Assembly: GCA_026395965.1 (NCBI GenBank)
Contig: JAPLXS010000006.1
Span: 118,683 to 182,682, forward strand
DNA: 64,000 nt
Direction: 5' to 3'
Source: Candidatus Nomurabacteria bacterium
GTDB lineage: Bacteria > Patescibacteriota > Minisyncoccia > Phycocordibacterales > UBA9973
Shown: piece after piece, positions 22,027-54,095 of the stretch
Layout of the letters: every line of letters starts with the position of its first letter
Position numbering within the stretch: position 1 is the first letter of the stretch
Made by a program: the position numbers and the translations under genes
Notes under the pieces: model-generated
Told to the model about the DNA's origin: nothing
The model's input: the letters and a program-made list of their open reading frames with translations, nothing else
Databases searched by the model: none

Positions 22027-22106
22027 TAAGAATTAAGAATTAGGAATTAATAATTAGGAATTGATAAACAACTCAGAATTAATAATTAATAAAAATTAAT
22101 AATTAT
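22027..22106. repeat. (GAATTAR)n heptanucleotide tandem array
   Basis: taagaattaagaattaggaattaataattaggaattga...aattaataattaataaaaattaataatta. Confidence 0.7.
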
Positions 22107-22432: not shown

Positions 22433-22458
22433 AATTAAGAATTAGGAATTAGGAATCC
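22433..22458. repeat. (GAATTAR)n heptanucleotide array
   Basis: aattaagaattaggaattaggaatcc. Confidence 0.7.
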
Positions 22459-22697
22459 ACAAAGGACCACTAATTAAGAATTCAAAATAAATAATTCCGG
22501 CTACAAGCTATTTGGTATTAACAACTTATAGTATTAAATTTTCAATGATCTTCTCTTCCCAAATGTACTTATATAAAACAAGAACATAGGGATACTATAT
22601 ACTACCACATCTAGCAATAAAATACCAGGGGTAATACACATAAATATTATATATGGAGTCATTTAAATATGCAACATATATGACCCAATTACGGATT

Positions 22698-22724
22698 AAA
22701 AATTAGGAATTAAGAATTAGAAAT
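22698..22724. repeat. (GAATTAR)n heptanucleotide array
   Basis: aaattaggaattaagaattagaaatac. Confidence 0.7.
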
Positions 22725-22826
22725 ACGAGCATACAATGAGGCCGTAGTGGGACTTGAGGGTGATACTCAGCTATACCCCTGTTTTGTGATTACATATGGA
22801 TTAAATATCCACCTAGACATTCATTA

Positions 22827-22866
22827 AAACACTCCCCAGAAAGCTCCGCTTTCTGGGGAGTGTTTT
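22827..22866 (-). terminator. rho-independent terminator of the 22889..23743 gene
   Basis: aaaacactccccagaaagc-ggagctttctggggagtgtttt with a T-tract on the minus strand. Confidence 0.65.
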
Positions 22867-22870
22867 AATG

Positions 22871-22901
22871 ATTCATAATTCATAATTTTTAATTCGTAAT
22901 T
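22871..22901. repeat. heptanucleotide array (AATTAYG variants) overlapping the stop codon of the 22889..23743 gene
   Basis: Minus strand reads aattacgaattaaaaattatgaattatgaatc. The TAA stop and last codons (IITN*) lie inside the array. Confidence 0.6.
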
Positions 22902-23743
22902 ATACTATACCTGCTCCATCTTTTTGCACCTGTCTTTTTGATGTGTCCTTTAGAGATGAGGGTGTTTAATTCGCGTTGAATTGTCTTTTCTGAACAGTTC
23001 GTGAATGCCAGTGATATGTCTTTTATTGAAATTCCCTCTTCACCGATTTGTATGCCTTTCTTATCTTTTATCATGCTCAATATTTTTGCTGTTCGGTCAT
23101 TTCTGTCTGATAGATTTGTCTCATAAGATTTTATTTTTTGAGGATAAGAAAGCGATAAAGGACTCTTGCGATTTGTAAGAGACATTCCATCTAATGATGT
23201 CCCTTTGTTGTTTGAAAATTGCTCTTTATTGTGATTAAAACTATCTACATTTCCGAGAGATATTTCGCTCTCATTTTCCTCTGGCAGATGAAACATTTTG
23301 TCGTCCAATTTGAAAGTAAAATGTTTGTCTTTCTCTTGGCTTGATTTCAAATCAGAAGCTAGTATAGAGAACTCTTTTTTTAGTATTGAAGTATTCATCT
23401 CTGAGATGAAACCTATAGTATGAGCTATCTCTATAAAAGAAAGTAGTTCGTATATGTGAGTTAGTGATACAGAAATATAAGAATGCTTTTCTACTGGAGA
23501 CAATGTAGAGAGCTTATATATATCGGACAGAAGTTCTACACCTAGTAAACGAAGCTTCCCCTTTAGTGCATCGTCTGTGTCCATGCAATCAGAAACCAAA
23601 TACAAAGCTGTCACTAGCTTCTCTGTCTTTTTGTTTGCAAAATGAGAAACATGTATATTTGACAATGATTTTATATCAGAGACATCAGAATGTCCGTATG
23701 TATTTAAGCTTGTCTTTTGTATGTCTTTTTGATTATTTATCAT
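22889..23743 (-). CDS. hypothetical protein with C-terminal winged-helix-like segment
   Basis: The C-terminus (ISIKDISLAFTNCSEKTIQRELNTLISKGHIKKTGAKRWSRYSI) looks like a wHTH. The rest has no recognisable domain. Confidence 0.35.
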   Translation of the reverse strand: MINNQKDIQKTSLNTYGHSDVSDIKSLSNIHVSHFANKKTEKLVTALYLVSDCMDTDDALKGKLRLLGVELLSDIYKLSTLSPVEKHSYISVSLTHIYELLSFIEIAHTIGFISEMNTSILKKEFSILASDLKSSQEKDKHFTFKLDDKMFHLPEENESEISLGNVDSFNHNKEQFSNNKGTSLDGMSLTNRKSPLSLSYPQKIKSYETNLSDRNDRTAKILSMIKDKKGIQIGEEGISIKDISLAFTNCSEKTIQRELNTLISKGHIKKTGAKRWSRYSIITN

Positions 23744-23839: not shown

Positions 23840-23875
23840 AAATTAATAATTAGGAATTAGGAATTAAGAATTGAA
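23840..23875. repeat. (GAATTAR)n heptanucleotide array
   Basis: aaattaataattaggaattaggaattaagaattgaa. Confidence 0.7.
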
Positions 23876-23936
23876 TACAGAAATAATTATAAAATAATTG
23901 AAAATTTGGAATTTTAAATACGAAACACAGGTTCAT

Positions 23937-23986
23937 TTTTTAGACGTCGGATATCTATTAGTAAACAGGTGTCCGACGTCTAAAAT
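23937..23986. repeat. TAGACGTCCGACA-family long palindrome
   Basis: tttagacgtcgga-tatctattagtaaacaggtg-tccgacgtctaaa. Confidence 0.7.
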
Positions 23987-24000
23987 TGAGCTCCTGATCA

Positions 24001-24033
24001 CATTCTTAATTGTTAATTCTTAATTTGTAATTG
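24001..24033. repeat. (GAATTAR)n heptanucleotide array (reverse orientation)
   Basis: cattcttaattgttaattcttaatttgtaattg. Confidence 0.65.
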
Positions 24034-24280: not shown

Positions 24281-26518
24281 ATGGCAAAAAAAGATAAAGA
24301 AAAAGAAGATGTTGAGAGCACATCCAAACAAGGAAATAGGAAGAATAAAAATATTAAGAAAGTAGAAATGAGAGAAGAGATTCGCATGAGTATTTGGGGT
24401 ATAACTTTTATGTTTCTCGGTCTTTTGATAACCTTATCTGTTTTCAAAATGGCTGGTCCTGTGGGCGATTTTATTTACGATAAATTGAGTGCATTCTTTG
24501 GGCTTGGGTACTTTCTCCTACCTGTACTTCTAGTAGTGATAGGATATTCTTTTTTGAAAAAAGAAAGACCACAAGTTGCAAAAATTCACGCTATCTTTGG
24601 TCTCGCTACACTACTCTCTACACTAGGAATAATGGACCTCGCAGCCAATGGAAAAGAGGCATCGGTCAATATAACTTTTGGTGGGTATCTAGGTAGTATT
24701 GTCGCATGGCCATTCTTGAAACTTTTCGGAGTATATGCAGGGATACTTTTGCTTGGAGCAATACTCATTACCTCTCTTATTATCTTGTGTGACGAGAGAC
24801 CAAACTTGGTAGAACTATTTAAAAAGTTTTGGAGTTTTTTGAAGAGAGATATTCGTACACCAAAAATCGATAATGAAGAAGGGGAAGAAAATTACGAATT
24901 AGAAGAAAATAAAATAGAGACAAAAGAATCAGCAGTAAAAACAAATGTAGTAGAATACGATGAGAACCCCGTAGAAGAAAAACAAGAAGGTCGCGCTTCA
25001 AAGGACACTGCGCGACATGATTCTGCAGAATCAGATATGAAGGTAAAGAAATTTACTACTGACTACATACCTCCCCCAATGTCTCTCTTAGAAAAAGATA
25101 AGGGTAAGCCAAACACAGGAGACATGAAAGGCAACATGAATATAATACAGAGAACTCTCCTCACCTTCGGTGTATCCGTAGAAATGGATGAAGTAACTGT
25201 CGGACCAACTGTTACTCGCTACGCAATGAAACCTGCACAAGGAGTAAAACTCTCACGCATAGTAGGACTTCAAAATGAACTAGCACTAGCACTCTCTGCA
25301 CGTACTATACGTATCGAAGCACCTATCCCTGGAAAGTCACTTGTGGGTATCGAAATACCAAACAAAGTAAAATCTATGGTTGGACTCGCTACACTTCTAT
25401 CTGATGATTTATTCCAAAACTCTGCAAAGCCACTCACTGTCGCACTCGGACGTGGACTATCTGGAAAGTCAGTATTTGGAAACATAGCAAAAATGCCACA
25501 CTTGCTAGTAGCAGGAACAACTGGTTCTGGTAAGTCTGTAACAATACACTCAATCATCACTTCCCTACTCTACAAAAATGGACCAGAAGATTTGAGACTA
25601 ATACTAGTGGATCCAAAAAGAGTAGAACTAACTTTGTATAACAAAATCCCCCACTTACTCACTCCAGTTATTACTGACCCAAAGAAAACAATCTTGGCTC
25701 TAAAGTGGGCAGCAAAAGAAATGGATAGACGCTACGACTTACTCCAAGCTCATTCTGTGCAAAATATAGAATCATACCAATCTAATGTTTATGGAAAAGC
25801 AAAGAAAGATGAGGTTATAGAAAAACTCCCTTATATAGTTATCTTTATCGATGAACTTGCAGATATAATGCAGTCATACCCTAGAGAGCTAGAAAGTGCT
25901 ATCGTTCGTCTTGCTCAGATGTCTCGTGCTGTGGGAATACACTTAATACTATCTACACAGAGACCATCTGTGAATGTCATCACAGGACTAATCAAGGCCA
26001 ATATTCCTACTCGTGTAGCTCTACAGGTGTCATCACAGATAGACTCCCGAACTATTTTAGACCATGGTGGTGCCGAACTACTAGGTGCTGGAGACATGCT
26101 CTACTCTTGTGCAGAAACTCCTCACCCAGAGAGAATACAGAGTGCATTTATATCTGAAGAAGAAGTTAAAAAAGTGGTAGAATACTTACGTAAGGCTTAT
26201 ATAGATGAAATACCTAGTACAATAGAACTATCTGGAAGTATAGATAAAGGAGGAAACAATCTTTTCAATGACAGTATCGGTGGAGATGATGGAGATGATG
26301 ACCTATATGAAGATGCAAGAATGACAGTTATAGAGGCAGGCAAAGCATCTACTTCATACCTACAGAGAAAACTTGGTATCGGATACGCTCGCGCAGCTAA
26401 ACTCATAGATATGCTAGAAGAACGTCATGTAATAGGAGCTGGTAATGGAGCAAAACCAAGAGATGTACTAGAAAAAGGAGTGAATAATACAGATGATATG
26501 ATTATGGGTAAGGAATAA
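24281..26518 (+). CDS. ftsK: DNA translocase FtsK/SpoIIIE
   Basis: N-terminal TM helices, Walker A LLVAGTTGSGKS, and a C-terminal gamma wHTH domain (YLQRKLGIGYARAAKLIDMLEE). Confidence 0.9.
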   Translation: MAKKDKEKEDVESTSKQGNRKNKNIKKVEMREEIRMSIWGITFMFLGLLITLSVFKMAGPVGDFIYDKLSAFFGLGYFLLPVLLVVIGYSFLKKERPQVAKIHAIFGLATLLSTLGIMDLAANGKEASVNITFGGYLGSIVAWPFLKLFGVYAGILLLGAILITSLIILCDERPNLVELFKKFWSFLKRDIRTPKIDNEEGEENYELEENKIETKESAVKTNVVEYDENPVEEKQEGRASKDTARHDSAESDMKVKKFTTDYIPPPMSLLEKDKGKPNTGDMKGNMNIIQRTLLTFGVSVEMDEVTVGPTVTRYAMKPAQGVKLSRIVGLQNELALALSARTIRIEAPIPGKSLVGIEIPNKVKSMVGLATLLSDDLFQNSAKPLTVALGRGLSGKSVFGNIAKMPHLLVAGTTGSGKSVTIHSIITSLLYKNGPEDLRLILVDPKRVELTLYNKIPHLLTPVITDPKKTILALKWAAKEMDRRYDLLQAHSVQNIESYQSNVYGKAKKDEVIEKLPYIVIFIDELADIMQSYPRELESAIVRLAQMSRAVGIHLILSTQRPSVNVITGLIKANIPTRVALQVSSQIDSRTILDHGGAELLGAGDMLYSCAETPHPERIQSAFISEEEVKKVVEYLRKAYIDEIPSTIELSGSIDKGGNNLFNDSIGGDDGDDDLYEDARMTVIEAGKASTSYLQRKLGIGYARAAKLIDMLEERHVIGAGNGAKPRDVLEKGVNNTDDMIMGKE

Positions 26519-26582
26519 TTAGGAATTAGGAATTTAGAAACAATAAGAGGGGTAAAAAATTAGGAATTAAAATACAATAAGA
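26515..26582. repeat. two (GAATTAR)n heptanucleotide arrays abutting the ftsK stop
   Basis: aataattaggaattaggaatttag ... aaattaggaattaaaatac. The ftsK TAA stop lies at the array edge. Confidence 0.65.
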
Positions 26583-26596: not shown

Positions 26597-26992
26597 ATGC
26601 AATTAAAAACTATAAAAAATAAAAATATGAAATGGTGGCTAGGAACAATATCCTGCGTAACACTATTTTCTATTATTATGATTTTTGGTTATGAAAAAAT
26701 GTTCTTTATGTTCCATGGAGTAAAAATAGAAGCTAGTATGGTACAAAGTGTTGACTCTCCCCTAACGATAGTGTCTGGCAAAGCAGAGAAAGCTATATAC
26801 TTATCTCTAAACGGTAGAGAAATATTTATAGATAAAAAAGGAAACTTTTCTGAATCGATAGCAGTGCTTCCTGGATTTTCTGTAATCACACTTAGCGCTG
26901 AAGATAAATTTGGAAAGACCGCAGAGAAAAAGTTTGAAATGGTTAAAGAAGAAAGTGTGCCAGCAGTAGCATTAGCAGCAACTAGTAACTAG
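26597..26992 (+). CDS. hypothetical membrane-anchored protein (131 aa)
   Basis: Single N-terminal TM helix. No recognisable domain. Confidence 0.3.
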   Translation: MQLKTIKNKNMKWWLGTISCVTLFSIIMIFGYEKMFFMFHGVKIEASMVQSVDSPLTIVSGKAEKAIYLSLNGREIFIDKKGNFSESIAVLPGFSVITLSAEDKFGKTAEKKFEMVKEESVPAVALAATSN

Positions 26993-27000: not shown

Positions 27001-27130
27001 AAACTAAATTTAAATTTAAAATATATCTTTCCAAAGGGTACGAAAATTTTTTACTAAAAATTTTCTGAAGTGTTCGTTTCGACAAACTCACAACCCCCTT
27101 TGATAAGAATATTTTAAATTTAAATTTAGT
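27001..27130. repeat. ~130-bp element bounded by perfect 23-bp inverted repeats (aactaaatttaaatttaaaatat)
   Basis: 27001-27023 is the exact reverse complement of 27108-27130. The core contains a nested palindrome gaaaatttttTACTaaaaattttc. It lies immediately upstream of recA. Confidence 0.65.
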
Positions 27131-27159
27131 TAGTAATTTATTAATTAACATAATCATAT

Positions 27160-28242: not shown

Positions 28243-28277
28243 GAAGAATTAAGAATTTATAATTACGAATTAGGAAT
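28243..28277. repeat. heptanucleotide array immediately after the recA stop
   Basis: gaattaagaatttataattacgaattaggaatac. Confidence 0.65.
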
Positions 28278-28322: not shown

Positions 28323-28442
28323 CCCCTGTTTTAATTTATTAAATATCTATACTGATTCACTAAAATAACCTATGGTAAAATCAATAGATTGGCTTACATA
28401 TGCCATAGTAAATACTTAGCATTTAAAAAATATATTGAATAA

Positions 28443-28491
28443 AATAAACTAACTCACTTTACGCTATAGCGTAAAGTGAGTTAGTTTATTT
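28443..28491. repeat. palindrome with ACGCTATAGCGT core
   Basis: aataaactaactcactttacgctatagcgtaaagtgagttagtttatt. The core is shared with 54048-54095. Confidence 0.6.
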
Positions 28492-28629: not shown

Positions 28630-29208
28630 ATGCTTGAATACAGTGAAATTTGTACAAAAAAAATAATAATCTACGAGAATGAGCCATGTGAAGTTATGGA
28701 AAACCATGTAGCCCGTACTCAACAAAGAAAGCCTCAAAATCAGGTAAAGCTAAAGAGTTTACTATCTGGACGTACTTGGAATACAGTATTTCATGCATCA
28801 GACAAGGCAGAGGAAGCAGATATTAGTAAAAAAGAAGTTAAATTCTTATATGCTAGTAAAGATGAATTTTGGTTCTCAAGCCCTACTGATCCAAAAGACC
28901 GTTTTACAATTACAGCAAAAATCATTGGCGATGCATCTAAATTCTTAAAAGCCAACGAAAATGCAACTGCAGTAGTCTGGGATAATGATGGAGAGGAACA
29001 AATCATAAAGATATCTACTCCTATCAAAATGGAATTTGTAATCAAAGACTGTCCACCATCAATAAAAGGAAGTACTGCTTCAGGTGGAGGTAAACTTGCA
29101 ACACTTGAAAATGATGTAAAAGTTCAAGTTCCCTTCTTTATAGAAACTGGCGACAAGGTTATAGTAAATACTGAAACTGGTGAATATGTAGAAAGAGTAC
29201 AGAAATAA
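28630..29208 (+). CDS. efp: elongation factor P
   Basis: N-terminal KOW-like motif (QQRKPQNQVKLKSLLSG) and the C-terminal motif VPFFIETGDKVIVNTETGEYVERV. Confidence 0.8.
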   Translation: MLEYSEICTKKIIIYENEPCEVMENHVARTQQRKPQNQVKLKSLLSGRTWNTVFHASDKAEEADISKKEVKFLYASKDEFWFSSPTDPKDRFTITAKIIGDASKFLKANENATAVVWDNDGEEQIIKISTPIKMEFVIKDCPPSIKGSTASGGGKLATLENDVKVQVPFFIETGDKVIVNTETGEYVERVQK

Positions 29209-29270
29209 AAGTTAGTAACTAGGATTTAGAGACTAGGTACTAGCAAATACAAAATATACAGTTGGGATTA

Positions 29271-29308
29271 CCCATTCAAAGGCCGTCGGAAGACGGCCTT
29301 TGAAATTT
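29271..29308 (+). terminator. rho-independent terminator of efp
   Basis: ttcaaaggccgtcggaagacggcctttgaaattt. Confidence 0.7.
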
Positions 29309-29395
29309 ACAGTGATTAATCTTTCTTTACCGGTCTAAACCTATGGGTTTGATTTGGTAATCTATAAAATATTAAAATACCTGACGAAAAACAAT

Positions 29396-29425
29396 AAAAA
29401 CCACCCGGATGGGTGGTTTTTATAT
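29396..29425 (-). terminator. terminator of rplK (bidirectional hairpin)
   Basis: aaaaaccacccggatgggtggtttttat. Confidence 0.65.
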
Positions 29426-29432
29426 TTGAGTA

Positions 29433-29861
29433 TTAGTCTACTATTGTTATTCCTGCTGAGCGAGCTGAACCTTCTATTATTTTCATTGCTCCTTCTATGT
29501 TTTTAGCATTAAGGTCGGGCATTTTCTTAATAGCGATCTCTTTCACTTGAGCTTTTGTGATAGTACCTACTTTTGAAACGTTTGGTTTTCCTGAACCTTT
29601 CTCTACTCCTGCTGCTTTTAATATTAGTCCAGCAACTGGAGGAGTTTTGATTTTGATATCATAAGTTCTATCTTCAAAAACAGTAATAAGAACTCCAACT
29701 GTTTCCCCTGCCATAGCGGCAGTCATTGCGTTAAACTTTTGACAGAATTCGGCAATGTTTACTCCGGCTTGTCCTAGTGCAGGTCCAAGTGGTGGAGCTG
29801 GTGTAGCCTTTGCAGCTGCGATTTGTAATTTTACTTTCTTTATAATTTTTTTTGCTGCCAT
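29433..29861 (-). CDS. rplK: 50S ribosomal protein L11
   Basis: [36 protein letters not shown] is a canonical L11 N-terminus. Confidence 0.95.
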
Positions 29862-29869
29862 ATAAATAG

Positions 29870-29912
29870 ATAATTAAGAATTAATAATTAGGAATTAAGA
29901 ATCTAGTGATTA
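29870..29912. repeat. (GAATTAR)n heptanucleotide array in the rplK 5' leader
   Basis: taattaagaattaataattaggaattaagaatctag. Confidence 0.65.
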
Positions 29913-30116
29913 TTTTCTAGAAAATACTTAATAATTGAAGCTTAGCGTAACGGGTGTAATATAACATAATTGGGCTCATAATACAATGTAGTAAGGAGAA
30001 AGTAGCAGGTAGTAAGGATAAGTGTATTTTAATTAGTTTAAGATTTTTAAAAATCGATTAAATAGTATTAGATGCGAGGCAAAGATGGGCATTATGAATA
30101 TTTTATAATTGAATCA

Positions 30117-30163
30117 AAATAGACGTCCGACATCTGTTGGTACAGGTGTCGGACGTCTATTAA
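30117..30163. repeat. TAGACGTCCGACA-family long palindrome
   Basis: aatagacgtccgacatctg-ttggta-caggtgtcggacgtctatt. Confidence 0.7.
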
Positions 30164-30185
30164 GATGATGCTATTTTACTAATAG

Positions 30186-30311
30186 TAAAATTAAAAAAAT
30201 GGCATTAGATGCGAGGCGCAGGCGAGGATTGCGACCAAAATGTATATTGATACATTGCGGAAGCAACCGGAGCCTGCAACAAAGCAGATAATGCCATTTT
30301 TTTAATTTTAA
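30186..30311. repeat. ~125-bp element bounded by perfect 21-bp inverted repeats (aaaattaaaaaaatggcatta); right arm covers the nusG stop codon
   Basis: 30187-30207 is the reverse complement of 30289-30309. A degenerate partial copy of its left end (attagatgcgaggc) lies at 30065-30100. Confidence 0.65.
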
Positions 30312-30859
30312 AGTTTTTTGATTTGTAGGAAGTCTAGCTCAACTGGAGTCTCACGTCCGAACATTGAAACAAGGACTTTTATCTTACCGCGTTCACGGTC
30401 TACATCACTAACCTTGCCTTCAAGGTCTTTAAATGGACCATCTGCAATACGAACCATCTCTCCTACTTCTGTATCTATCTGGTGTTTATTTTTTGAATCA
30501 ACTTTTTCCATTCTACTGAAAAGTTCATCAACTTCATTTTTGGCCAATGGAACTGGATTTACCCCTGCTCCTACGAAACCTGTTACGCGAGGAGTATTTC
30601 TAACTACGTACCATGAGTTGTCGTCTACTATCATATCTACAAGTACATAACCTGGGTAAACTTTTTCCTCAACTTCAACACGCTTTCCAGCTTTTATTTT
30701 TATTTTCTTTTCAACCGGAACAACAACAGAAAATATCTTATCGTTCATTCCAAGTGAATCTATACGCTGTTTCAAATTACGCATAACTGCATTCTCATAA
30801 CCAGCATAAGTATGAATTGCGTACCAATTTCTTTCTCCTCTTAATTCTTGTTTTGCCAT
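30308..30859 (-). CDS. nusG: transcription termination/antitermination factor NusG
   Basis: NGN domain (WYAIHTYAGYENAV) and a C-terminal KOW (GKRVEV...GYVLV). Confidence 0.9.
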   Translation of the reverse strand: MAKQELRGERNWYAIHTYAGYENAVMRNLKQRIDSLGMNDKIFSVVVPVEKKIKIKAGKRVEVEEKVYPGYVLVDMIVDDNSWYVVRNTPRVTGFVGAGVNPVPLAKNEVDELFSRMEKVDSKNKHQIDTEVGEMVRIADGPFKDLEGKVSDVDRERGKIKVLVSMFGRETPVELDFLQIKKL

Positions 30860-30892
30860 AATATATTAAAAATCTGCCTACCGGCAGGAAGG

Positions 30893-31078
30893 TTATCTTG
30901 TTAATAATAATTTAAGACCTTGTCCAAATATAAAATCTAGAAAACCTAGATAGTACGCAACTATAGCAGATACTGCTAAAACAGAAATAGTAAAATATAT
31001 TGTTTGTTTTTGAGTTGGCCAGGTTACATTTTTACCTTCTGCTATTACTTCTTTTATGTATTCTTTAGTTTTATTCAT
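30893..31078 (-). CDS. secE: preprotein translocase subunit SecE
   Basis: 61 aa with a single C-terminal TM helix. Conserved position upstream of nusG. Confidence 0.7.
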   Translation of the reverse strand: MNKTKEYIKEVIAEGKNVTWPTQKQTIYFTISVLAVSAIVAYYLGFLDFIFGQGLKLLLTR

Positions 31079-31289
31079 CCCATCAGAGATAGTTTCGCCA
31101 AAGTTGAAACGTATCTAATTAAATATTGTTAATAATATAAGCTTTATAATTGTTTTTACTATCTATGTAGAAAATAAATCACACATCTCTAACAGGGACT
31201 TGTATATTTTCTTAGTTCTAGTAAAAAACACCCCGGGGGTGTATTAAATATATATTAACACTTTTATTGAGATAGCGCAATGTAGAACA

Positions 31290-31337
31290 AAATAGACGTC
31301 CGACACCTGCCGTAGCAGATGTCGGACGTCTATTTTT
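31290..31337. repeat. TAGACGTCCGACA-family long palindrome (followed by T-tract)
   Basis: aatagacgtccgacacctgc-cgtag-cagatgtcggacgtctattttt. Confidence 0.7.
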
Positions 31338-31347
31338 ATGATTTAAA

Positions 31348-32136
31348 CTATCTTATCTCGTAAGCTATAGATACATTTGAAGTTATTTTATTTTCTCCCT
31401 TGGGAAGAACAGGTGCTTCGGGAGCAGAAACTAAACTATCTACTGCCATGGTTTTTGCATATACTCCATAATTATTACCAGTATTTTCTGAAAAACTTAC
31501 AACCTTACCAAGAGTAACTCCAAGTTCTTTAGACAAAACTTCGGCTTTAGCTTTTGCATCTATTATAGCTTTTGAGCGTGCTTGATCTTTAAATGCTTCT
31601 TCATCATCTATAGAGAATGTTGGACCACTTATATCTGTCACACCAATAGCTGTTAATCCTGTGCGTACGATACTTGCATTGTCTACAACACGTATTTTTA
31701 TAGTTATAGATTGCATAGCTGTGTAACCTATTATTTTTGGTTCTTGGGTTGGACATGGGTAAACAAGACAAGCTACTTGCCCATAAGAATATTTTGGTGA
31801 GAGACCTCCGTATTCTGATTTAATATCTTTGTCTTCTATTTTTTGTTCTTTTAGATAAGCTAATGTTTTTGTAATTGATTCATTTAGAAGAGTTTGTGCT
31901 TCTTTTGCTGTCTTACCTTCTTTATTTAGATTTACTGTTAATGATGCAATATCTGAAACAGCTAGAATATCCCCTGTTCCACTTACTGATATAACATTGG
32001 CTGGCTGATTTCCACGACCTACATAAGCACTAGATTTAATCTCATTGTACAGTTTTACTACTGTAAGTAGAGAAATTACTATTATTAATGCAAAAATTGA
32101 ATTCTTTATTTTTTTCTCATTTAAAAATGTTTCCAT
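31348..32136 (-). CDS. SIMPL (DUF541, BP26/OMP28-like) domain protein
   Basis: N-terminal TM anchor, then the SIMPL pattern (ISVSGTGD...SLTVNL ... C-terminal region). Confidence 0.6.
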   Translation of the reverse strand: METFLNEKKIKNSIFALIIVISLLTVVKLYNEIKSSAYVGRGNQPANVISVSGTGDILAVSDIASLTVNLNKEGKTAKEAQTLLNESITKTLAYLKEQKIEDKDIKSEYGGLSPKYSYGQVACLVYPCPTQEPKIIGYTAMQSITIKIRVVDNASIVRTGLTAIGVTDISGPTFSIDDEEAFKDQARSKAIIDAKAKAEVLSKELGVTLGKVVSFSENTGNNYGVYAKTMAVDSLVSAPEAPVLPKGENKITSNVSIAYEIR

Positions 32137-43856: not shown

Positions 43857-46800
43857 TTATAAAACTGGCAGAGCAGGAGTTTCAGTAGTATCTGCTGGTG
43901 GTGGAACTACGGCAGCAGGAGTTTCTACTGCTGGTGGTACTACTTCGACAGGAGGAATATTTGTATCCCCAGGAACGACAACTGAAGCGTCAACAGGAGG
44001 TGTATCTGAAGTTGTTGTATCTGTTATTGATGTTGCACCTGTTGTTGCAGATGAGCCTGATGTTGATGGAATTAATTGTTTTAATTTAATAAGATCAGTC
44101 TTGTTGATACACTCATACGAACCATCTGGGTCAGTAAGACAAATCTCTCCAGTAAAGATGCGAGTTATCTTATTTGCCGCATTAGATAACCATGCAAAGA
44201 GACTATCTCTCCATGTATTTTGTATAGTCATATCAGCTATTCCTGTTATTTTTAGATTCATCTCTCTTATCGCTTCTACTATGATAGGTGTCATCTGCGC
44301 GTAGTACACGGACTTGTACCCTTGTGAATCTGTTGCTACGAGTTGAGGAAAATATTGCTCCAAATCTTGAGCGAGGAATCCAACTTGTTGTGGAGATGCT
44401 GGATTTTCCAACCAGTTATAAGTAACTGTTTTTACTTTCAACAAGTTATCTAAAGTATTATCAGATAGATTTATAATATTTGTCTTTAGTCTTTCATCTG
44501 AAGTACAAGCGATACCTGTACCAGTAGTGATAGTACACTGAGTAGAAGAAGAGCCATTTATACGAGTAGTATTTATCGGTCTATTGGCAGAACCTACTAT
44601 AAACTGATTTGCGGCTGTATTGGTTGCGTATGCACCTATTGCTATACTGTTTGAAAAGCTTCCTGCGCTCGTGGCATGACCAATTAGGATAGAAGTATCG
44701 GCGAATGTAGTAGTGTCATTGTATACAGCTGTATTGTTGACTGTATTATTGTATCCTGAATTTCTACCAATAAATATTGAGTTGGCAGCATTTGTAGCAT
44801 TGTACCCTGCACTACTTCCAAAGAAATTTGAGTTAATAGCGTTAGCTGCACCATACCCTGACAATAAACCAAAAAAGTTTGAGTTATTGGCTGAAGTAGC
44901 ACCACTTCCGGAATTTTTTCCAAAGAAGTTTGAATATGAAGCAGTAGTTGCACCACTTCCTGCATTCGGACCAAAGAAGTTTGAGTTAATAGCTGAGGTT
45001 GCATTATACCCTGTAGCTCCTCCAAAGAAATTAGAGTTGTTAGCTGAGGTTGCACCATATCCTGAAAGTGCCCCAAAGAAATTAGAAGAAAAAGCACTAG
45101 TTGCATTTTGTCCGGCGCCGTTTCCCATAAAGATGGTACCATTAGCAGATGCTGTACCTTGGTTGCCACCAATAAAAATTGAGTTGATCTGTCTGTTAAC
45201 AGAACCTACCATAAACTGATTTGCGGCTGTATTGGTTGCGTATGCACCTATTGCAATACTGTTTGAGTACCCTCCTGTACCAGTACCATGGCCTAGGAGG
45301 ATTGAAGTATTGGCAAAAGTAGTTACATCGTCATATACAGAAGTATTAACAACGGTATCATTTAAGCCTGAATTTGTACCTATAAATATTGAGTTGGCTG
45401 CACTAGTTGCACTATGTCCTGCATCTGTTCCAAAGAAATTTGAATAAGCAGCAGAACCAGCTTGATTTCCTGCGTTTAATCCGAAGAAGTTTGAGTTGTT
45501 AGCGGAATTAGCACTACTTCCTGCATATGATCCAAAGAAATTTGAATCATGGGCATTGACAGAACTACTTCCTGCACTTGTTCCAAAGAAGCTTGATTGA
45601 TTCGCATAAGTTGCACCATTTCCTGCATTAGAACCAAAGAAATTTGAATTCGAAGCACCGGTTGCTAGTACTCCTGTATTAACTCCAAAGAAGTTTGATG
45701 CATAAGCACCAGTAGCACCCCATCCCGCCCAATACCCGAAAAAGTTTGAGCTATTAGCATTGGTTGCATTTATTCCCGATTTTACACCAAAGAAGTTTGA
45801 GCCATAGGCACTAGTTGCTGATAATCCCGCATCAGCACCAAAGAAGTTTGATGCACTAGCACCAGTAGCAAGCTTTCCTGCATTAGAACCAAAGAAGTTT
45901 GAACTATTAGAACTGGTTGCACCATATCCTGCACTATGACCAAAGAAGTTTGAGTTATTTGCACTGGTTGCACCATTTCCTGCATCTGTACCAAAGAAGT
46001 TTGAATATGGAGCAGAACTAGCATGATACCCCGCAAGATAACCAAAGAAGTTGGAAGCATCAGAATTTGTGGCTCCGTCACCTGCATTTGATCCAAAAAA
46101 GTTTGAGCTATTAGCATTGGTTGCGCCATTTCCTGCATATGATCCAAAGAAATTTGAACCACTTGCATTGGTTGCACTATTCCCTGCATTAATTCCAAAG
46201 AAGTTTGAAACATTGGCAAGAGAAGCATTAAGTCCTGCATTAACTCCAAAGAAGTTTGAATTAGATGCGCCAGTTGCACCACTTCCTGCATCTGTTCCAA
46301 AGAAGTTTGAATTATCTGCACTAGTTGCATTTTTACCCGCACTATTACCCATAAAGATTGTATTTTGAACAGATGCTGTGCCTTGATTGCCTCCAATAAA
46401 AATTGAGTTAATTGGTCTGTTAGCAGAACCTACCATAAACTGATTGGAATATGTATTGGTTGTATACGCACCTAATGCAATACTATTTGAGTACCCTCCA
46501 GTGCTAGTACTATGACCAATGAGGATGGAGGTGTCGGCGAAGGTAGTAGTCTCATTGTACAATGCAGTATTGTTTACAAGATCATTATTACCTGAATTAG
46601 TACCTATAAATATTGAGTTGGCAGCATTGGTTGCAGAATAACCCGCAGAAGAACCAAAGAAATTTGAATTAAATGCAAAAGTAGCTGTGCTTCCTGCACT
46701 TGGTCCAAAGAAGTTTGACGCAAGGGCATTTGTTGCGTTTGTTCCCGCAGAAGAACCGAAGAAATTTGAGCTACTGGCCTCAGTTGCACCATGACCTGAA

Positions 46801-49493
46801 TCTGTTCCAAAGAAGTTTGAGCCATTTGCATTTGTGGCACCATCACCTGCATTTGCTCCAAAGAAATTAGAATAATAAGCATTATAAGCATTGAGTCCTG
46901 AGCTTGATCCAAAGAAGTTGGAGTTATTTGCAGCAGTTGCATTTTCACCTGCACTTACGCCAAAAAAGTTTGAGGCAGTGGCGACAGTTGCATTTCTTCC
47001 TGCACTTAATCCAAAGAAGTTTGATTGGTTAGATAAACTTGCTCCATCTCCGGCATAACTTCCAAAAAAGTTTGAGTTGTTGGCATCAGTTGCATTTTGA
47101 CCAGAAAATGTACCAAAGAAGTTTGAGCTGTAAGCATTAGTTGCACTTATTCCTGAAAAATTTCCAAAGAAGTTTGAATTATTGGCACCACTAGCATTTT
47201 GACCAGAAAATGTACCAAAGAAGTTTGAGTGGTCGGCTGCATTTGCACCGTCACCTGCATTTTGTCCAAAGAAGTTAGAGTTATTGGCAGCAGTTGCATT
47301 TAGTCCAGAATTAAGTCCTAAAAAGTTTGAATAAGAAGCATCGGTAGCACTAAGTCCTGCATTCGCTCCCGAGAAGTTTGAATCATTTGCTTTTGTTGCA
47401 CCGTTTCCTGCACTTGGTCCAAAGAAGTTGGATGAGTAAGCTGAATTTGCACCTAAACCTGTGCTTGATCCAAAGAAATTTGAGTTGTTGGCACTAGTTG
47501 CACCATTTCCTGCGTCTGTACCAAAGAAGTTTGAGTTTGAGGCGGAAGCTGCATTCAATCCTGCGTTATTTCCCATAAAGATTGTACCAATTACTGATGC
47601 TGTGCCTTTGTTTCCGCCAATAAAAATAGAATTTATAGGTCTGTTATCAGAACCTACCACAAACTGATTGGGTGCTGTGTTGGTTGAGTATGCACCTATT
47701 GCAATACTATTTGAGAAACCACCAGTATTTGTATTGTGACCAAGGAGAATGGATGTATCAGCGAAGGTGGTAGTATCATCATACACTGCAGTATTGTTTA
47801 CTGTATCATTGTATCCTGAATTTTTACCAATAAATATTGAATTGGCGGCATTGATTGCATGATTTCCCGCATAATAACCAAAGAAATTTGAATCATAAGA
47901 ATTGTTTAAATTATTGGAATCTCCTCTTCCTGCATTTGATCCAAAAAAGTTTGAATTAGAAGCATTATTAGAATAAATTCCTGAGGAAGGTCCAAAGAAG
48001 TTTGAACTACTAGCACCATTTGCACTATTACCTGCACTATACCCAAAGAAGTTTGAGTAAGTAGAATTTATAGCTCCATATCCTGCTGTTTGTCCAAAAA
48101 AGTTTGAATAAGATGCACCTTCAGCAATTTTACCAGCTCTATCTCCAAAAAAATTTGAACCATCAAGACCTAAAATTCCCTCCCCAGCACTTCTACCAAA
48201 AAGGTTTGAACTAATTATATTTACTCCACCATTACCTGCATCTCTTCCAAAGAAGTTAGATTCGTAAGCATATATAGCTCCTAGGCCAGCACCTTCTCCA
48301 AAAAAATTTGAGTTGTAAGCACCAATTCCACCGCTTCCTGCATTTAGTCCAAAGAAGTTTGAACTTGTAGCATCAGTTGCATTCAATCCTGCGTTTGTTC
48401 CAAAGAAGTTTGAGTTAGCTGCGTTAGTAGCACTACTTCCTGCGCTTGTTCCAAAGAAATTGGAGTTAGCAGCAGCAGTTGCACTATTACCTGCGCTTGG
48501 TCCAAAGAAATTGGAGCTATTAGCACCAGTTGCACCAAACCCTGAATTGTCTCCAAAGAAGTTTGAATTATCTGCATTAGTTGCACCACTTCCTGCACTT
48601 AATCCAAAGAAATTTGATTTAGCAGCATTGGTTGCACCATCTCCTGCATTTGATCCAAAGAAGTTGGAACTACTCGCATTGGTTGCATTTGATCCAGATG
48701 CATAGCCTAAGAAGTTTGAGAAGGAGGCAGAAGCTGCATTCAATCCCGCATTTGTTCCAAAGAAGTTTGAATTAGAGGCGCCAGTGGCACCACTTCCAGC
48801 ATTATTTCCAAAGAAGTTTGACGAGAAGGCATTGGTTCCATTCAACCCAGCTCCATAACCTAAGAAGTTTGAATTATCAGCATTGGTCGCACCACTTCCT
48901 GCATTTTTTCCAAAGAAGTTTGAGTAAGTAGCAGACGAGCTTGATCCTGAGCCTGTTAGTCCTGTAGAAAAAAGTGATGTGGTGTTTTGTACTGTAATAG
49001 GTGAAGACACTACTGTCCCCCATGCTATATCTGTACCGTTGGTAGTGAGAAATTGACCCGCAATACCAGAGACAGATGGGATAACAACTTTCCAATCTGA
49101 AGATAAAGTAAGACAACGATTTTGATTGGCATCCAAAGAAGAGTCAGTGACAGTTGTTGTACAAGCTGGGTACCCTCCGCGGTTTGTAACTAGACGATAA
49201 GTTGCTGTCTGATTTCCTGCTGTGCCAGAGTCGGTATCTATAACAGTTGCTATCATTCCTAGAGATCTTCTTTCACTTGTGATAGCAAGTAGAGCTGTCA
49301 TATCTGCTACTTGCATGTGTCCTCCTTGGAGGTAGTTTGTATCAGCGATAGCAAAGTAACCGTTCCCTACTCCGAGAGTAGTAGGTACAGCTAGACCTCC
49401 GTTTTGAGAATAAGCTCGATATGAAAATGAACCAACCATAAGTAGGACGGTTGTAATAAAAAATATTTTTGTTTTAAGGTCTATTATTTTCAT
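43857..49493 (-). CDS. giant (1878 aa) secreted tail-fibre-like repeat protein with C-terminal Peptidase_S74 intramolecular chaperone domain
   Basis: Signal peptide. N-terminal fibre-like motif GQFLTTNGTDIAWGTV. More than 90 tandem 15-aa repeats (SNFFGxxAGxGATxA). Four higher-order ~100-aa modules (SIFIG.NSG...FADTSIL.GH...NQF.VGS.NRPINSIFIGGN). TSDERLKTNI...YNW...GF.AQDLEQ..P.LV matches the S74 autoproteolytic chaperone. A Pro/Thr/Val-rich tail follows. Confidence 0.7.
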   Translation of the reverse strand: MKIIDLKTKIFFITTVLLMVGSFSYRAYSQNGGLAVPTTLGVGNGYFAIADTNYLQGGHMQVADMTALLAITSERRSLGMIATVIDTDSGTAGNQTATYRLVTNRGGYPACTTTVTDSSLDANQNRCLTLSSDWKVVIPSVSGIAGQFLTTNGTDIAWGTVVSSPITVQNTTSLFSTGLTGSGSSSSATYSNFFGKNAGSGATNADNSNFLGYGAGLNGTNAFSSNFFGNNAGSGATGASNSNFFGTNAGLNAASASFSNFLGYASGSNATNASSSNFFGSNAGDGATNAAKSNFFGLSAGSGATNADNSNFFGDNSGFGATGANSSNFFGPSAGNSATAAANSNFFGTSAGSSATNAANSNFFGTNAGLNATDATSSNFFGLNAGSGGIGAYNSNFFGEGAGLGAIYAYESNFFGRDAGNGGVNIISSNLFGRSAGEGILGLDGSNFFGDRAGKIAEGASYSNFFGQTAGYGAINSTYSNFFGYSAGNSANGASSSNFFGPSSGIYSNNASNSNFFGSNAGRGDSNNLNNSYDSNFFGYYAGNHAINAANSIFIGKNSGYNDTVNNTAVYDDTTTFADTSILLGHNTNTGGFSNSIAIGAYSTNTAPNQFVVGSDNRPINSIFIGGNKGTASVIGTIFMGNNAGLNAASASNSNFFGTDAGNGATSANNSNFFGSSTGLGANSAYSSNFFGPSAGNGATKANDSNFSGANAGLSATDASYSNFLGLNSGLNATAANNSNFFGQNAGDGANAADHSNFFGTFSGQNASGANNSNFFGNFSGISATNAYSSNFFGTFSGQNATDANNSNFFGSYAGDGASLSNQSNFFGLSAGRNATVATASNFFGVSAGENATAANNSNFFGSSSGLNAYNAYYSNFFGANAGDGATNANGSNFFGTDSGHGATEASSSNFFGSSAGTNATNALASNFFGPSAGSTATFAFNSNFFGSSAGYSATNAANSIFIGTNSGNNDLVNNTALYNETTTFADTSILIGHSTSTGGYSNSIALGAYTTNTYSNQFMVGSANRPINSIFIGGNQGTASVQNTIFMGNSAGKNATSADNSNFFGTDAGSGATGASNSNFFGVNAGLNASLANVSNFFGINAGNSATNASGSNFFGSYAGNGATNANSSNFFGSNAGDGATNSDASNFFGYLAGYHASSAPYSNFFGTDAGNGATSANNSNFFGHSAGYGATSSNSSNFFGSNAGKLATGASASNFFGADAGLSATSAYGSNFFGVKSGINATNANSSNFFGYWAGWGATGAYASNFFGVNTGVLATGASNSNFFGSNAGNGATYANQSSFFGTSAGSSSVNAHDSNFFGSYAGSSANSANNSNFFGLNAGNQAGSAAYSNFFGTDAGHSATSAANSIFIGTNSGLNDTVVNTSVYDDVTTFANTSILLGHGTGTGGYSNSIAIGAYATNTAANQFMVGSVNRQINSIFIGGNQGTASANGTIFMGNGAGQNATSAFSSNFFGALSGYGATSANNSNFFGGATGYNATSAINSNFFGPNAGSGATTASYSNFFGKNSGSGATSANNSNFFGLLSGYGAANAINSNFFGSSAGYNATNAANSIFIGRNSGYNNTVNNTAVYNDTTTFADTSILIGHATSAGSFSNSIAIGAYATNTAANQFIVGSANRPINTTRINGSSSTQCTITTGTGIACTSDERLKTNIINLSDNTLDNLLKVKTVTYNWLENPASPQQVGFLAQDLEQYFPQLVATDSQGYKSVYYAQMTPIIVEAIREMNLKITGIADMTIQNTWRDSLFAWLSNAANKITRIFTGEICLTDPDGSYECINKTDLIKLKQLIPSTSGSSATTGATSITDTTTSDTPPVDASVVVPGDTNIPPVEVVPPAVETPAAVVPPPADTTETPALPVL
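44700..48950. repeat. intragenic 45-bp tandem repeat region (ccaaagaagtttga... units) encoding SNFFG repeats
   Basis: The recurring motifs ccaaagaagtttgag / ccaaagaaatttga are visible throughout the giant gene. Confidence 0.75.
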
Positions 49494-54047: not shown

Positions 54048-54095
54048 ACCACTCTAACCCAACTTACGCTATAGCGTAAGTTGGGTTAGAGTGGT
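54048..54095. repeat. palindrome with ACGCTATAGCGT core
   Basis: aaccactctaacccaacttacgctatagcgtaagttgggttagagtggtgg. Confidence 0.6.

What the first reader, a model, noticed from the sequence alone, without database searches (positions are those of the whole stretch)
30061..30311. nusG-rplK spacer is a 445-bp repeat hotspot: IR-bounded element overlapping the nusG stop, a degenerate partial copy, and a TAGACGTCCGACA palindrome
nusG and rplK are normally adjacent. Here 446 bp separate them. The 21-bp perfect IR aaaattaaaaaaatggcatta (30187-30207 and 30289-30309) brackets an 81-bp core that is richer in GC. Its right arm covers the nusG TAA. A fragment attagatgcgaggc...atgggcattatg at 30065-30100 duplicates the left interior of the element. 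The long palindrome at 30117-30163 lies between them. This indicates repeated insertion and decay of small non-autonomous elements at this site.
Basis: seen in the sequence. Interest (0 to 1): 0.5.

Follow-up and report, generated by a model that had tools for sequence, protein, structure and literature searches.

The report
Stop-codon-anchored hairpin element after nusG
The odd 446-bp gap between nusG and rplK in this Patescibacteria genome holds one copy of a previously undescribed, strongly structure-conserved 125-nt hairpin that starts at the nusG stop codon, followed by a repeated terminator-like palindrome and a decayed second copy; it is a real new element family, but its function is not yet known.

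Summary
The organism is a Paceibacterota (Patescibacteria) bacterium, and the genes lie on the minus strand.

In 77 related genomes the nusG-rplK spacer has a median length of 53 bp. Here, about 335 bp sit directly after the nusG TAA. The eight closest relatives lack this block. The rplK-proximal ~114 bp are ancestral.

The "IR-bounded element" (30186-30310) is not a classical MITE. It belongs to a family of 11 copies in 7 genomes.
- All copies have one orientation.
- All begin -10 to +4 nt from a stop codon.
- Nine of the 11 follow nusG or rplK.
- 35 of 41 base pairs show compensatory changes, and two internal loops are conserved.
- The outer "inverted repeat" is a locus-specific basal helix. 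In some copies it pairs with the last codons of the upstream gene.

Rfam has no match. The window encodes no transposase.

The TAGACGTCCGACA palindrome is a separate REP-like repeat with three copies in the window. Here it is placed as the nusG terminator.

Best reading: a labile, locally duplicating structured 3'-UTR module. Puzzle: all copies fold better on the antisense strand.

The parts
30308..30859 (-). nusG (183 aa). Its TAA (30310-30308) forms the first base pairs of the hairpin.
   Evidence: ORF. Pfam NusG/KOW on the identical product. Homologues are named NusG.
30186..30310 (-). 125-nt imperfect hairpin, a member of the new family 'R'. Orientation is given as gene sense.
   Evidence: IR. 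Fold. Covariance models R1 (128 bits) and R2 (118 bits). Homologues in L011, L014, L045, L046, L078 and L018.
30289..30310 (-). 5' strand (in gene sense) of the perfect 22-bp AT-rich basal helix. It contains the nusG stop codon.
30186..30207 (-). 3' strand (in gene sense) of the basal helix, U-rich.
30208..30288 (-). GC-richer core. It holds the conserved internal loops (sense strand: AUCUgCUuuGUU and GCGCCUyGnAUCU) and the apical hairpin.
   Evidence: 51.9% GC. Conserved columns and pair counts.
30173..30191 (.). Small palindrome ATTTTACTAATAGTAAAAT. It overlaps the last 6 nt of the hairpin and offers an alternative pairing for the end of the basal helix.
   Evidence: Self-match over 19 nt at 94.7%. 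I4 and I7.
30113..30166 (-). Palindrome B (TAGACGTCCGACA...TGTCGGACGTCTA), followed on the minus strand by TTTTGATT. This REP-like repeat sits where a nusG intrinsic terminator would be.
   Evidence: The T-run is read. The simple scanner did not flag it.
30050..30100 (-). Decayed 3' fragments of a second family-R copy: GCCTCGCATCTAATAC..., preceded by TAATGCCCATCTTT.
   Evidence: D1 and I6..
29976..30049 (-). Rest of the lineage-specific insertion. It contains a 13-nt direct repeat (29988-30000 / 30009-30021), has no ORF and has no homologue.
   Evidence: Alignment gap. D3. No hits.
29862..29975 (-). Ancestral rplK-proximal spacer, conserved in relatives. It holds the GTTACGCT motif (29943-29950) and the 7-nt tandem array (29872-29902) directly upstream of the rplK ATG.
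   Evidence: Alignment A2..
29433..29861 (-). rplK (L11, 142 aa). It is followed by its own terminator at 29423-29394. No rplA lies downstream.
   Evidence: Pfam L11 on homologues.
31289..31336 (-). Second copy of palindrome B. It starts 11 nt after the stop of the SIMPL gene (31348-32136) and has a T-run on the minus strand.
23938..23985 (.). Third, variant copy of palindrome B. It lies between divergent genes and is flanked by inverted 7-mer arrays.

Best explanation
The 125-nt inverted repeat is one copy of an undescribed family of long imperfect hairpins in Paceibacterota.

The homologous, copied unit is the inner ~85 nt. It consists of two conserved internal loops and an apical hairpin. 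The outer AT-rich 'inverted repeat' is a locus-specific basal helix. Its 3' strand is complementary to whatever lies at the end of the upstream gene, so the stop codon (and in some copies the last 2-3 codons) is inside the helix.

The element sits between a stop codon and, usually, an ordinary intrinsic terminator. It is found overwhelmingly at the 3' ends of nusG and rplK.

In this window it is part of a ~335-bp lineage-specific block inserted directly after the nusG TAA. The block also brought a REP-like palindrome that provides a terminator hairpin plus T-run, and it contains decayed 3' fragments of another copy.

Most likely mode of action (inferred, not shown): it is transcribed as the 3' UTR of nusG. 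There it acts in cis like REP/ERIC-type palindromes that lie within 15 nt of a stop codon. A stable helix that must be melted for the ribosome to terminate also blocks 3' exonucleases. This would tune nusG output and, together with palindrome B, uncouple nusG from rplK transcription.

It appears to spread by local duplication or gene conversion between neighbouring 3' UTRs, and it turns over quickly between species.

Shown: the anatomy, the family, the orientation, the position, the covariation and the lineage-specific presence.
Inferred: transcription, the cis effect and the mode of spread.
For: - Insertion: alignment with eight close relatives shows a ~335-nt gap directly after the TAA and a conserved rplK-proximal segment.
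- Family: nhmmer lead. Model R1 finds 10 sense copies in 1.37 Mb. Model R2 finds an 11th copy, L018, which was not in the training set.
- Structure: 94% of cells are paired, against 73% in shuffles and 35-49% when the partners are slid. 26 of 41 pairs have double changes in 5 sequences. 35 of 41 pairs are compensatory in 10 sequences.
- Position: all copies start -10 to +4 nt from the stop codon of a same-strand ORF of at least 140 codons.
- Pairing with the coding sequence: the basal helices AAGAAGGTG/CACCTTCTT (L045) and AAGAAAGTG/CACTTTCTT (L046) pair with nusG codons and differ by a synonymous change that is matched in the other arm.
- Locus preference: 9 of 11 copies follow nusG or rplK (Fisher p = 5e-10).
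- Terminators: seven copies have a GC-stem hairpin flanked by A- and T-runs within about 25 nt downstream (read; the scanner flags those of L011 and L014).
- Within-genome similarity: the cores of L011a and L011b are ~96% identical although their basal helices differ.
- Precedent: REPs fewer than 16 nt from a stop codon stall ribosomes and lower translation (PMC12306157, citing Liang et al. 2015).
Against: - All 11 copies fold 3-17 kcal/mol better as the antisense strand (Wilcoxon p = 0.001). The consensus fold is -44 kcal/mol antisense against -31 sense. The unpaired positions are 73% pyrimidine on the sense strand, which is atypical for a functional RNA. Other stop-anchored hairpins in relatives show the opposite bias.
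- No expression data exist.
- The copy number is low: one full copy in 64 kb with filters off. The strong preference for nusG and rplK is also unlike dispersed REP/ERIC repeats.
- The genome-wide distribution could not be examined.
- The element is absent from most Paceibacterota, including the nearest relatives of both the window and L011. Any function is therefore dispensable.
Confidence: 0.45

Rival explanations
1. Classical non-autonomous transposon (MITE). The 21-22-bp arms are terminal inverted repeats recognised by a transposase encoded elsewhere. The site shows repeated insertion and decay.
For: - The terminal IR is perfect over 22 bp and the element is 125 bp long.
- A decayed partial copy lies nearby.
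- The element is present in a lineage-specific way.
- Copies within one genome are more alike than copies between genomes.
Against: - The arms are not conserved between copies, even between two copies in one genome whose cores are ~96% identical.
- In L045 and L046 the 5' arm is coding sequence.
- No target-site duplication can be shown. The TA at both ends is part of the palindrome.
- There is a single full copy in 64 kb.
- The orientation relative to the upstream ORF is invariant.
- No transposase Pfam hit occurs in the window.
Confidence: 0.07
2. A DNA-level element whose functional form is the folded antisense (template) strand. It would be a structure-specific recombination or transposition substrate, comparable to the bottom strand of integron attC sites or to the hairpins used by HUH/Y1 enzymes. 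The basal helix would be generated or extended by template switching.
For: - The antisense strand is more stable in 11 of 11 copies. It has purine-rich loops and tandem G.A mismatches (AGAU/AGAU).
- Bidirectional terminators 1-25 nt away leave no room for an antisense promoter.
- It resembles attC in several ways: position at the 3' end of an ORF, overlap with the stop codon, structure conserved more than sequence, within-genome similarity, and patchy distribution.
- The outer helices are perfect and the inner stems imperfect, which fits palindrome extension.
Against: - There are no R''/R' boxes (RYYYAAC/GTTRRRY), no arrays and no integrase or HUH gene in any locus examined (sequences).
- nusG and rplK are not cassettes.
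- Within the helices shared by both strands, wobble counts are balanced: 9 pairs compatible only with the sense strand against 6 compatible only with the antisense strand.
- The energy bias comes largely from loop composition.
Confidence: 0.2
3. A dedicated cis-regulatory RNA of the nusG-rplK junction. It could be a protein-binding operator or a factor-dependent attenuator that sets read-through from nusG into rplK, or L11 synthesis.
For: - 9 of 11 copies follow nusG or rplK, and all copies lie within ~4 kb of nusG.
- Unpaired nucleotides are conserved in two internal loops.
- In L011 and L014 the element lies directly upstream of a TTGAAA-17-TAnAnT promoter-like site for rplK and again after rplK.
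- The sense loops are C-rich and G-poor, which is reminiscent of Rho loading sites.
Against: - It is absent from about 80 of 88 sampled relatives, including sister species.
- It also follows a SIMPL gene and a CYTH gene in L046.
- Copies after rplK are followed directly by terminators, so they cannot be leaders.
- There is no Rfam r-protein leader match.
- No convincing mimicry of the L11 rRNA site was seen, and what resemblance there is lies on the wrong strand.
Confidence: 0.2
4. Simply an unusually long intrinsic terminator of nusG.
For: - It is a stable hairpin whose 3' strand is U-rich (CAUUUUUUUAAUUUUA) directly after a G+C-containing helix.
- Close relatives L089 and L093 have ordinary terminators at the same place.
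Against: - Seven of 11 copies are followed by a separate canonical terminator.
- Two copies (L011a and L014a) sit inside a nusG-rplK unit with no sign of termination.
- The conserved loop sequences are unnecessary for a terminator.
- The U-run is paired within the basal helix.
Confidence: 0.06

Closest known systems
REP/BIME elements of Enterobacteria and Pseudomonas (repetitive extragenic palindromes)
   Same: - Transcribed palindromes in 3' UTRs, often within 15 nt of the stop codon. At that distance they stall ribosomes and protect mRNA 3' ends (PMC12306157).
- Homogenised within genomes, possibly by gene conversion.
- Palindrome B of this spacer (three copies in 64 kb, about 45-50 nt, conserved sequence, either orientation) resembles a REP closely.
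   Different: - The 125-nt element is three to four times longer.
- It is low-copy and locus-biased (nusG/rplK).
- It has a locus-specific outer helix and conserved internal loops.
- It occurs in one orientation only.
- No RAYT transposase was seen.
ERIC (IRU) and Correia/NEMIS elements (100-155-bp imperfect palindromic intergenic repeats)
   Same: - Similar size, about 125 nt.
- A long hairpin in mRNA.
- Co-transcribed with neighbouring genes.
- Patchy between species.
- Variants with internal insertions exist; L014b has an extra 23 nt.
(This comparison rests on my own knowledge of these families.)
   Different: - ERIC and Correia elements have conserved terminal repeats, occur in both orientations and at many loci, and duplicate TA.
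- In family R the termini differ at every locus, and the position is tied to a stop codon.
Integron attC sites
   Same: - Located at the 3' end of an ORF and often overlapping its stop codon.
- One orientation.
- 57-141 nt.
- Structure conserved while sequence is not.
- Conserved unpaired bases.
- Within-genome similarity.
- The functional strand is the one antisense to the gene.
(These attC features come from my own knowledge.)
   Different: - There are no RYYYAAC/GTTRRRY boxes.
- There is no cassette array.
- No integrase is present.
- The upstream genes are core housekeeping genes.
Ribosomal-protein operon leaders (L11/L1 and L10 leaders)
   Same: A structured RNA next to rplK in the secE-nusG-rplK cluster.
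   Different: - There is no Rfam match.
- The element also lies downstream of rplK and of unrelated genes.
- It is not conserved across the clade.

Membership tests
MITE (non-autonomous DNA transposon) | Terminal inverted repeats with the same sequence in all copies of a family | tested here: not met
   The outer arms differ in every one of the 11 copies while remaining complementary. L011a and L011b have ~96% identical cores but different arms.
MITE (non-autonomous DNA transposon) | Target-site duplication flanking the element | tested here: inconclusive
   Seven of 11 copies begin and end with TA, but this TA is part of the palindrome. The empty site in relatives cannot be matched on the 3' side because more inserted DNA follows.
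MITE (non-autonomous DNA transposon) | Many dispersed copies; a related autonomous element with a transposase | tested here: not met
   One full copy is found in 64 kb with filters off. No transposase, integrase or RT Pfam hit occurs in window ORFs. The rest of the genome could not be searched.
REP-like palindrome (applies to palindrome B, 30113-30166) | Short (20-50 nt) imperfect palindrome of conserved sequence, repeated in extragenic regions | tested here: met
   Three full copies lie at 30113-30166, 31289-31336 and 23938-23985, all intergenic. The 13-mer gives 10 hits against 0.34 expected. Related copies occur in two metagenome contigs.
REP-like palindrome (applies to palindrome B) | Associated RAYT (TnpA_REP) transposase | not testable with these tools
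   None is present in the window. The remainder of the genome is not available.
Intrinsic terminator (palindrome B on the minus strand) | G+C-rich stem followed immediately by a U-run | tested here: inconclusive
   There is a 13-bp G+C-rich stem, an extension with one C.A mismatch, then TTTTGATT. The simple scanner did not list it. The copy at 31289-31336 sits exactly where the SIMPL gene needs a terminator.
Intrinsic terminator (the 125-nt hairpin itself) | It is the structure at which transcripts of the upstream gene end | tested here: not met
   Seven of 11 copies are followed within about 25 nt by a separate canonical terminator. Two copies lie inside nusG-rplK units.
Any Rfam 15 family (including r-protein leaders, ribozymes, SRP, 6S, group II intron domains) | Match to the family covariance model | tested here: not met
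   Only microRNA-type noise appears at E up to 10 on the spacer. Nothing reaches gathering score on the element in the window, L011, L014 or L046.
Integron attC | R''/R' core sites (RYYYAAC ... GTTRRRY) paired at the base of the hairpin | tested here: not met
   Read directly in the 11 sequences. The bases of the hairpins are locus-specific, and no conserved AAC/GTT pair exists.
Integron attC | Array of cassettes and an intI integrase nearby | tested here: not met
   The upstream genes are nusG, rplK, a SIMPL gene and a CYTH gene. No integrase is present in the window.
Integron attC | Location at the 3' end of an ORF, fixed orientation, structure conserved more than sequence, folding favoured on the strand antisense to the gene | tested here: met
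New family 'R' (defined here) | Match to models R1/R2: the 5' motif AUCUnCU..GU, the 3' motif GCGCCUyGnAUCU, four helices, and a start at a stop codon | tested here: met
   The window copy scores 128 bits with R1 and 118 bits with R2. The stop codon is at element positions 2-4.

The most novel reading that the evidence does not exclude
The family may be a new class of structure-specific element that builds its own basal helix from the end of the upstream gene. Two forms of this reading remain open.
- A single-stranded-DNA recombination or mobility substrate that works through the antisense strand. It would be attC-like in logic but unrelated in sequence, and it would target stop-codon/terminator gaps of core genes.
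- A new regulatory RNA class dedicated to nusG/rplK, in which translation termination and UTR structure are physically coupled.
Probability: 0.2. Interest if true: 0.8.

Novelty: new variant of a known kind. Interest (0 to 1): 0.6.

Why it matters
Almost nothing is known about non-coding elements in Patescibacteria, which have tiny genomes with very short intergenic regions.

This is a well-supported structured element: 35 of 41 pairs are compensatory, the loops are conserved, and Rfam has no match. It also has an unusual rule. It begins at a stop codon, and its outer helix is complementary to the end of the upstream gene, to the point that a synonymous codon change is mirrored 115 nt downstream.

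Whether that complementarity is made by selection or by a copying mechanism, it is a concrete and testable case of coupling between a coding-sequence end and 3'-UTR structure.

The element also marks the nusG-rplK junction as a hotspot where transcription units are repeatedly split or joined in this phylum.

The consistent antisense-strand folding bias is unexplained. It could point to a DNA-level mechanism.

Tried and rejected
- Rfam at E up to 10 on the spacer, and at gathering score on the window and three loci: no family.
- tRNA/tmRNA scan: none.
- Metagenome scan for the core pattern TTAGATGCGAGGCNNAGNNGNGNATT: 0 hits.
- Palindrome B pattern: 2 loci in another organism and 0 in viral contigs.
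- BLASTN of the spacer against 1.3 Mb of relatives' loci: nothing. Only nhmmer gave the lead.
- A regex for the 3' motif found no copies beyond those from the covariance model.
- MAFFT could not align the interior of the 10 copies. This was solved by feeding the model-derived, gap-free alignment.
- Small ORFs in the hairpin (30-31 aa on both strands) were rejected. They are not conserved in other copies, and the substitution pattern is that of base pairs.
- The resemblance of the apical GAGCCGUAC...GUACGGUGAG to group II intron domain V was rejected. The helix is too short, the AGC triad is not paired as in domain V, and there is no Rfam hit.
- A resemblance to the L11-binding region of 23S rRNA (UUAGAAGCAG) exists only on the antisense strand and is weak.
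- attC R-boxes are absent.
- Recent recombination at the nusG 3' end was checked. Nucleotide identity to relatives is flat (75-93% per 60-nt window), with no mosaic.
- An ancestral rplK promoter spanning the nusG end (TTGCAA-N15-TATAAT in relatives, changed to CTACAA in the window) was considered. The spacer length is atypical and the scanner does not support it.
- Close relatives of L011 (L097 and L098) were fetched to look for orthologous copies. They lack the element.

Full report
**What is there.**
The window is 32.9% G+C. NusG homologues identify the organism as a Paceibacterota/Nomurabacteria-type member of the Patescibacteria (record titles).

The genes lie on the minus strand in this order:
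- a SIMPL-family gene (31348-32136)
- secE (30893-31078)
- nusG (30308-30859)
- a 446-bp spacer
- rplK (29433-29861)
- a terminator (29423-29394)
- efp and recA on the other strand

- The IR arms 30186-30212 / 30284-30310 are 27 nt and 93% complementary, and the outer 22 nt are perfect. The nusG TAA lies inside the right arm.
- The 81-nt core is 51.9% G+C against 13.6% in the arms.
- A partial direct copy lies at 30050-30093 (73% over 44 nt, with an exact 14-mer).
- The palindrome lies at 30113-30166.
- An independently assembled contig from run SRR20698642 has the identical spacer.

**The spacer compared with relatives.**
In 77 genomes of related species the nusG-rplK distance has a median of 53 bp. 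It is under 100 bp in 56 genomes.

Contigs carrying NusG proteins 92-95% identical to the window's were fetched. Their nusG genes are only 81-84% identical at the nucleotide level, so these are different species.

Aligning their spacers with the window's gives two results.
- The rplK-proximal ~114 nt (29862-29975) are conserved. This segment contains a CCYGTTACGCT motif and a 7-nt tandem array just before the ATG.
- About 335 nt directly after the nusG TAA (30307 down to ~29976) are present only in the window.

The same junction is variable in every relative.
- Some have nothing there (L082, L085).
- Some have an ordinary terminator followed by an extra ORF (L089, L093).
- One has a different 86-nt hairpin (L094).

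**The 125-nt hairpin belongs to a family.**
BLASTN found no relatives. nhmmer gave weak hits in L011 and L014, each directly after the nusG stop and again directly after the rplK stop. An alignment of these four with the window copy shows shared motifs and a common fold, with 27 of 43 pairs compensatory.

| Model | Training set | Result |
|---|---|---|
| R1 | these 5 sequences | five more copies in 1.37 Mb: L045 (after nusG), L046 (after a SIMPL gene, after nusG, after a CYTH-domain gene) and L078 (after rplK) |
| R2 | all ten copies | recovers all ten on the sense strand only, and adds L018 (after nusG), which was not used in training |

With filters off, R2 finds no second copy in the 64-kb window.

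The tool's controls on the five-sequence alignment are clear. 94.1% of cells are paired, against 73.3% in shuffles (0 of 500 reach the observed value) and 35-49% with slid partners. 26 pairs have changes on both sides, against 3-7 with slid partners. In the ten-sequence model-based alignment, 35 of 41 pairs show compensatory types and 89.5% of cells pair.

Conserved unpaired nucleotides lie in two internal loops. On the sense strand these are AUCUnCU..GU on the 5' side and GCGCCUyGnAUCU on the 3' side. More lie around the apical hairpin. Rfam 15 has no match for any copy.

**Rules of placement.**
All 11 copies are in the sense orientation of an upstream ORF and begin between -10 and +4 nt from its stop codon.

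The outer helix has a different sequence at every locus but is always complementary. In L045 and L046 its 5' strand is the last codons of the upstream gene. The nusG copies read AAGAAGGTG...CACCTTCTT in L045 and AAGAAAGTG...CACTTTCTT in L046. A synonymous Lys-codon difference is therefore mirrored ~115 nt downstream.

The two L011 copies have ~96% identical cores but different outer helices. The "terminal inverted repeat" is thus not a transposon end. It is either selected or generated in place.

Nine of 11 copies follow nusG (6) or rplK (3). The other two lie within 4 kb of nusG. Against roughly 153 other gene ends in the same loci, this gives p = 5e-10.

Seven copies are followed within about 25 nt by a G+C-stem hairpin flanked by A- and T-runs. 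This was read. The simple scanner lists the hairpins of L011 and L014 but not the others, because it absorbs the T-run into the stem. The window follows this pattern, because palindrome B comes 19 nt after the hairpin.

**Palindrome B and the rest of the block.**
The TAGACGTCCGACA palindrome has further copies in the window.
- 31289-31336 lies 11 nt after the SIMPL stop, with a T-run on the gene strand.
- A variant at 23938-23985 lies between divergent genes.
- Shorter TAGACGT hairpins lie at 1482-1518 and ~62970.

Related copies occur in two metagenome contigs of another organism, embedded in TTAGACG tandem repeats. Palindrome B is a REP-like repeat. In this spacer it sits where a nusG terminator is expected (inference).

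The region 30050-30100 holds decayed 3' pieces of the hairpin: GCCTCGCATCTAATAC..., preceded by TAATGCCCATCTTT. The remaining 74 nt have no homologue and no ORF.

**Distribution.**
The family is patchy at every level.
- It is absent from the eight closest relatives of the window.
- It is absent from L097 and L098, which are closer to L011 and L014 (88-90% NusG identity) than those two are to each other.
- About 80 of the 88 sampled genomes lack it.

Copies within one genome share apical sequences that differ between genomes. This fits local duplication or gene conversion, and rapid gain and loss. No transposase, integrase or reverse transcriptase is encoded in the window.

**The strand puzzle.**
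All 11 copies fold more stably as the antisense strand, by 3-17 kcal/mol (mean 11, p = 0.001). The RNAalifold consensus energy is -44.4 antisense against -31.4 sense.

On the sense strand the unpaired positions are 73% pyrimidine (U 168, C 115, A 66, G 36). Mismatches inside helices are U.C in 17 cells and G.A in 1. On the antisense strand these become purine-rich loops and tandem G.A pairs, which is the usual look of a functional folded strand.

Wobble counts inside the helices shared by both strands are balanced (9 against 6). The bias therefore comes mainly from loops and a few extra pairs.

Non-homologous stop-anchored hairpins after nusG in other relatives (L003, L009, L048, L058, L094) show the opposite bias. 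Two other AT-armed elements in the window (27002-27131 and 52313-52447) share the antisense bias.

Bidirectional terminators lie 1-25 nt from the element, so an antisense promoter has no room. The bias therefore points either to a DNA-level role of the template strand or to sense-RNA loops that are kept open and C-rich for a reason. I could not resolve this.

**Interpretation.**

The best-supported reading is a labile, locally duplicating, structure-constrained module in the 3' UTR of nusG (and rplK). It is a long hairpin that engulfs the stop codon and is followed by a terminator. By analogy with REP sequences fewer than 16 nt from stop codons, which stall ribosomes and affect mRNA fate (PMC12306157), it would tune upstream gene output. 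In this genome it would also separate nusG from rplK transcription.

The rivals that remain open are:
- an attC-like or HUH-like single-stranded DNA substrate
- a dedicated nusG/rplK regulatory RNA

A classical MITE and a plain terminator are largely excluded.

Noticed in passing
window 29872-29902; also 22027-22067, 22433-22456, 22687-22724, 22871-22901, 23841-23877, 24002-24032, 26517-26534, 28244-28277, 54156-54175: Tandem arrays of a 7-nt unit (AATTAGG/AATTAAG, read ATTCTTA/CCTAATT on the gene strand) occupy many 5' intergenic regions. One lies directly before the rplK ATG, where no Shine-Dalgarno sequence is visible. Near-identical relatives differ by exactly one 7-nt unit (L085 against L086)..
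   Followed up: partly
window 28442-28491, 54048-54095, 29943-29950: The octamer TTACGCTA occurs 7 times against 1.5 expected. It forms the centre of two perfect 25-26-nt-arm palindromes. It also occurs once in the conserved rplK-proximal spacer, as CCYGTTACGCT, which is conserved in relatives. It is a candidate operator or promoter motif..
   Followed up: partly
window 27002-27131 and 52313-52447 (also 22665-22923): Other ~130-nt elements have long AT-rich inverted arms and a G+C-richer core. They lie 9 nt and 4 nt after the stop codons of ORF 26597-26992 and of the MBL-fold gene 52452-53315. They are not detectably homologous to the nusG hairpin, but they share its architecture and its antisense folding bias..
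   Followed up: partly
L003 10548-10709; L009 10543-10701; L058 10534-10651; L048 10545-10674; L094 3555-3640: Unrelated long hairpins (86-162 nt) are also anchored at the nusG stop codon in other Paceibacterota. L009, L025 and L058 share an AACGAGCRTAGCGA motif. The stop codon of nusG seems to be a recurrent seat of long hairpins in this phylum..
   Followed up: partly
window 6267-6329: A DUF3800-II RNA (Rfam RF02961, 49 bits against a gathering score of 43.2) lies next to a DUF3800 gene (6356-6901). It is the only Rfam match in the window..
   Followed up: no
window 28630-32136 and loci L085, L089, L093, L094: rplK is not followed by rplA and has its own terminator. The SIMPL-secE-nusG-rplK-efp neighbourhood is an insertion hotspot in relatives. 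Extra ORFs of 177-185 aa lie between nusG and rplK. A 403-aa ORF or a RelB/YafQ pair lies between rplK and efp. Glug/PG-binding ORFs lie before secE. Several short-read contigs break right after the nusG stop (L092, L096)..
   Followed up: partly
window 30323-30331 (nusG codons FLQ) compared with relatives: All seven relatives with a short spacer keep TTGCA(A/G) in the last codons of nusG, 15 nt upstream of a TATAAT that follows the stop. The window and L089 have the synonymous CTACAA, and L093 has TTACAA. All three have DNA inserted after the stop. This may be a lost -35 box of an ancestral rplK promoter, but the spacing is atypical and the scanner does not support it..
   Followed up: partly
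L090 4420-4545; L091 4780-4988: In another organism the TAGACGTCGGACA palindrome sits between an agmatinase-like gene and a deoxyhypusine-synthase-like gene. It lies inside tandem repeats of TTAGACGAGACGAGAA / CTCTTCTCGTCTAATT..
   Followed up: no
window 43857-49493: A giant ORF (1878 aa) is built largely of 51-nt (17-residue) tandem repeats. Separately, no tRNA gene was found in the whole 64 kb..
   Followed up: no
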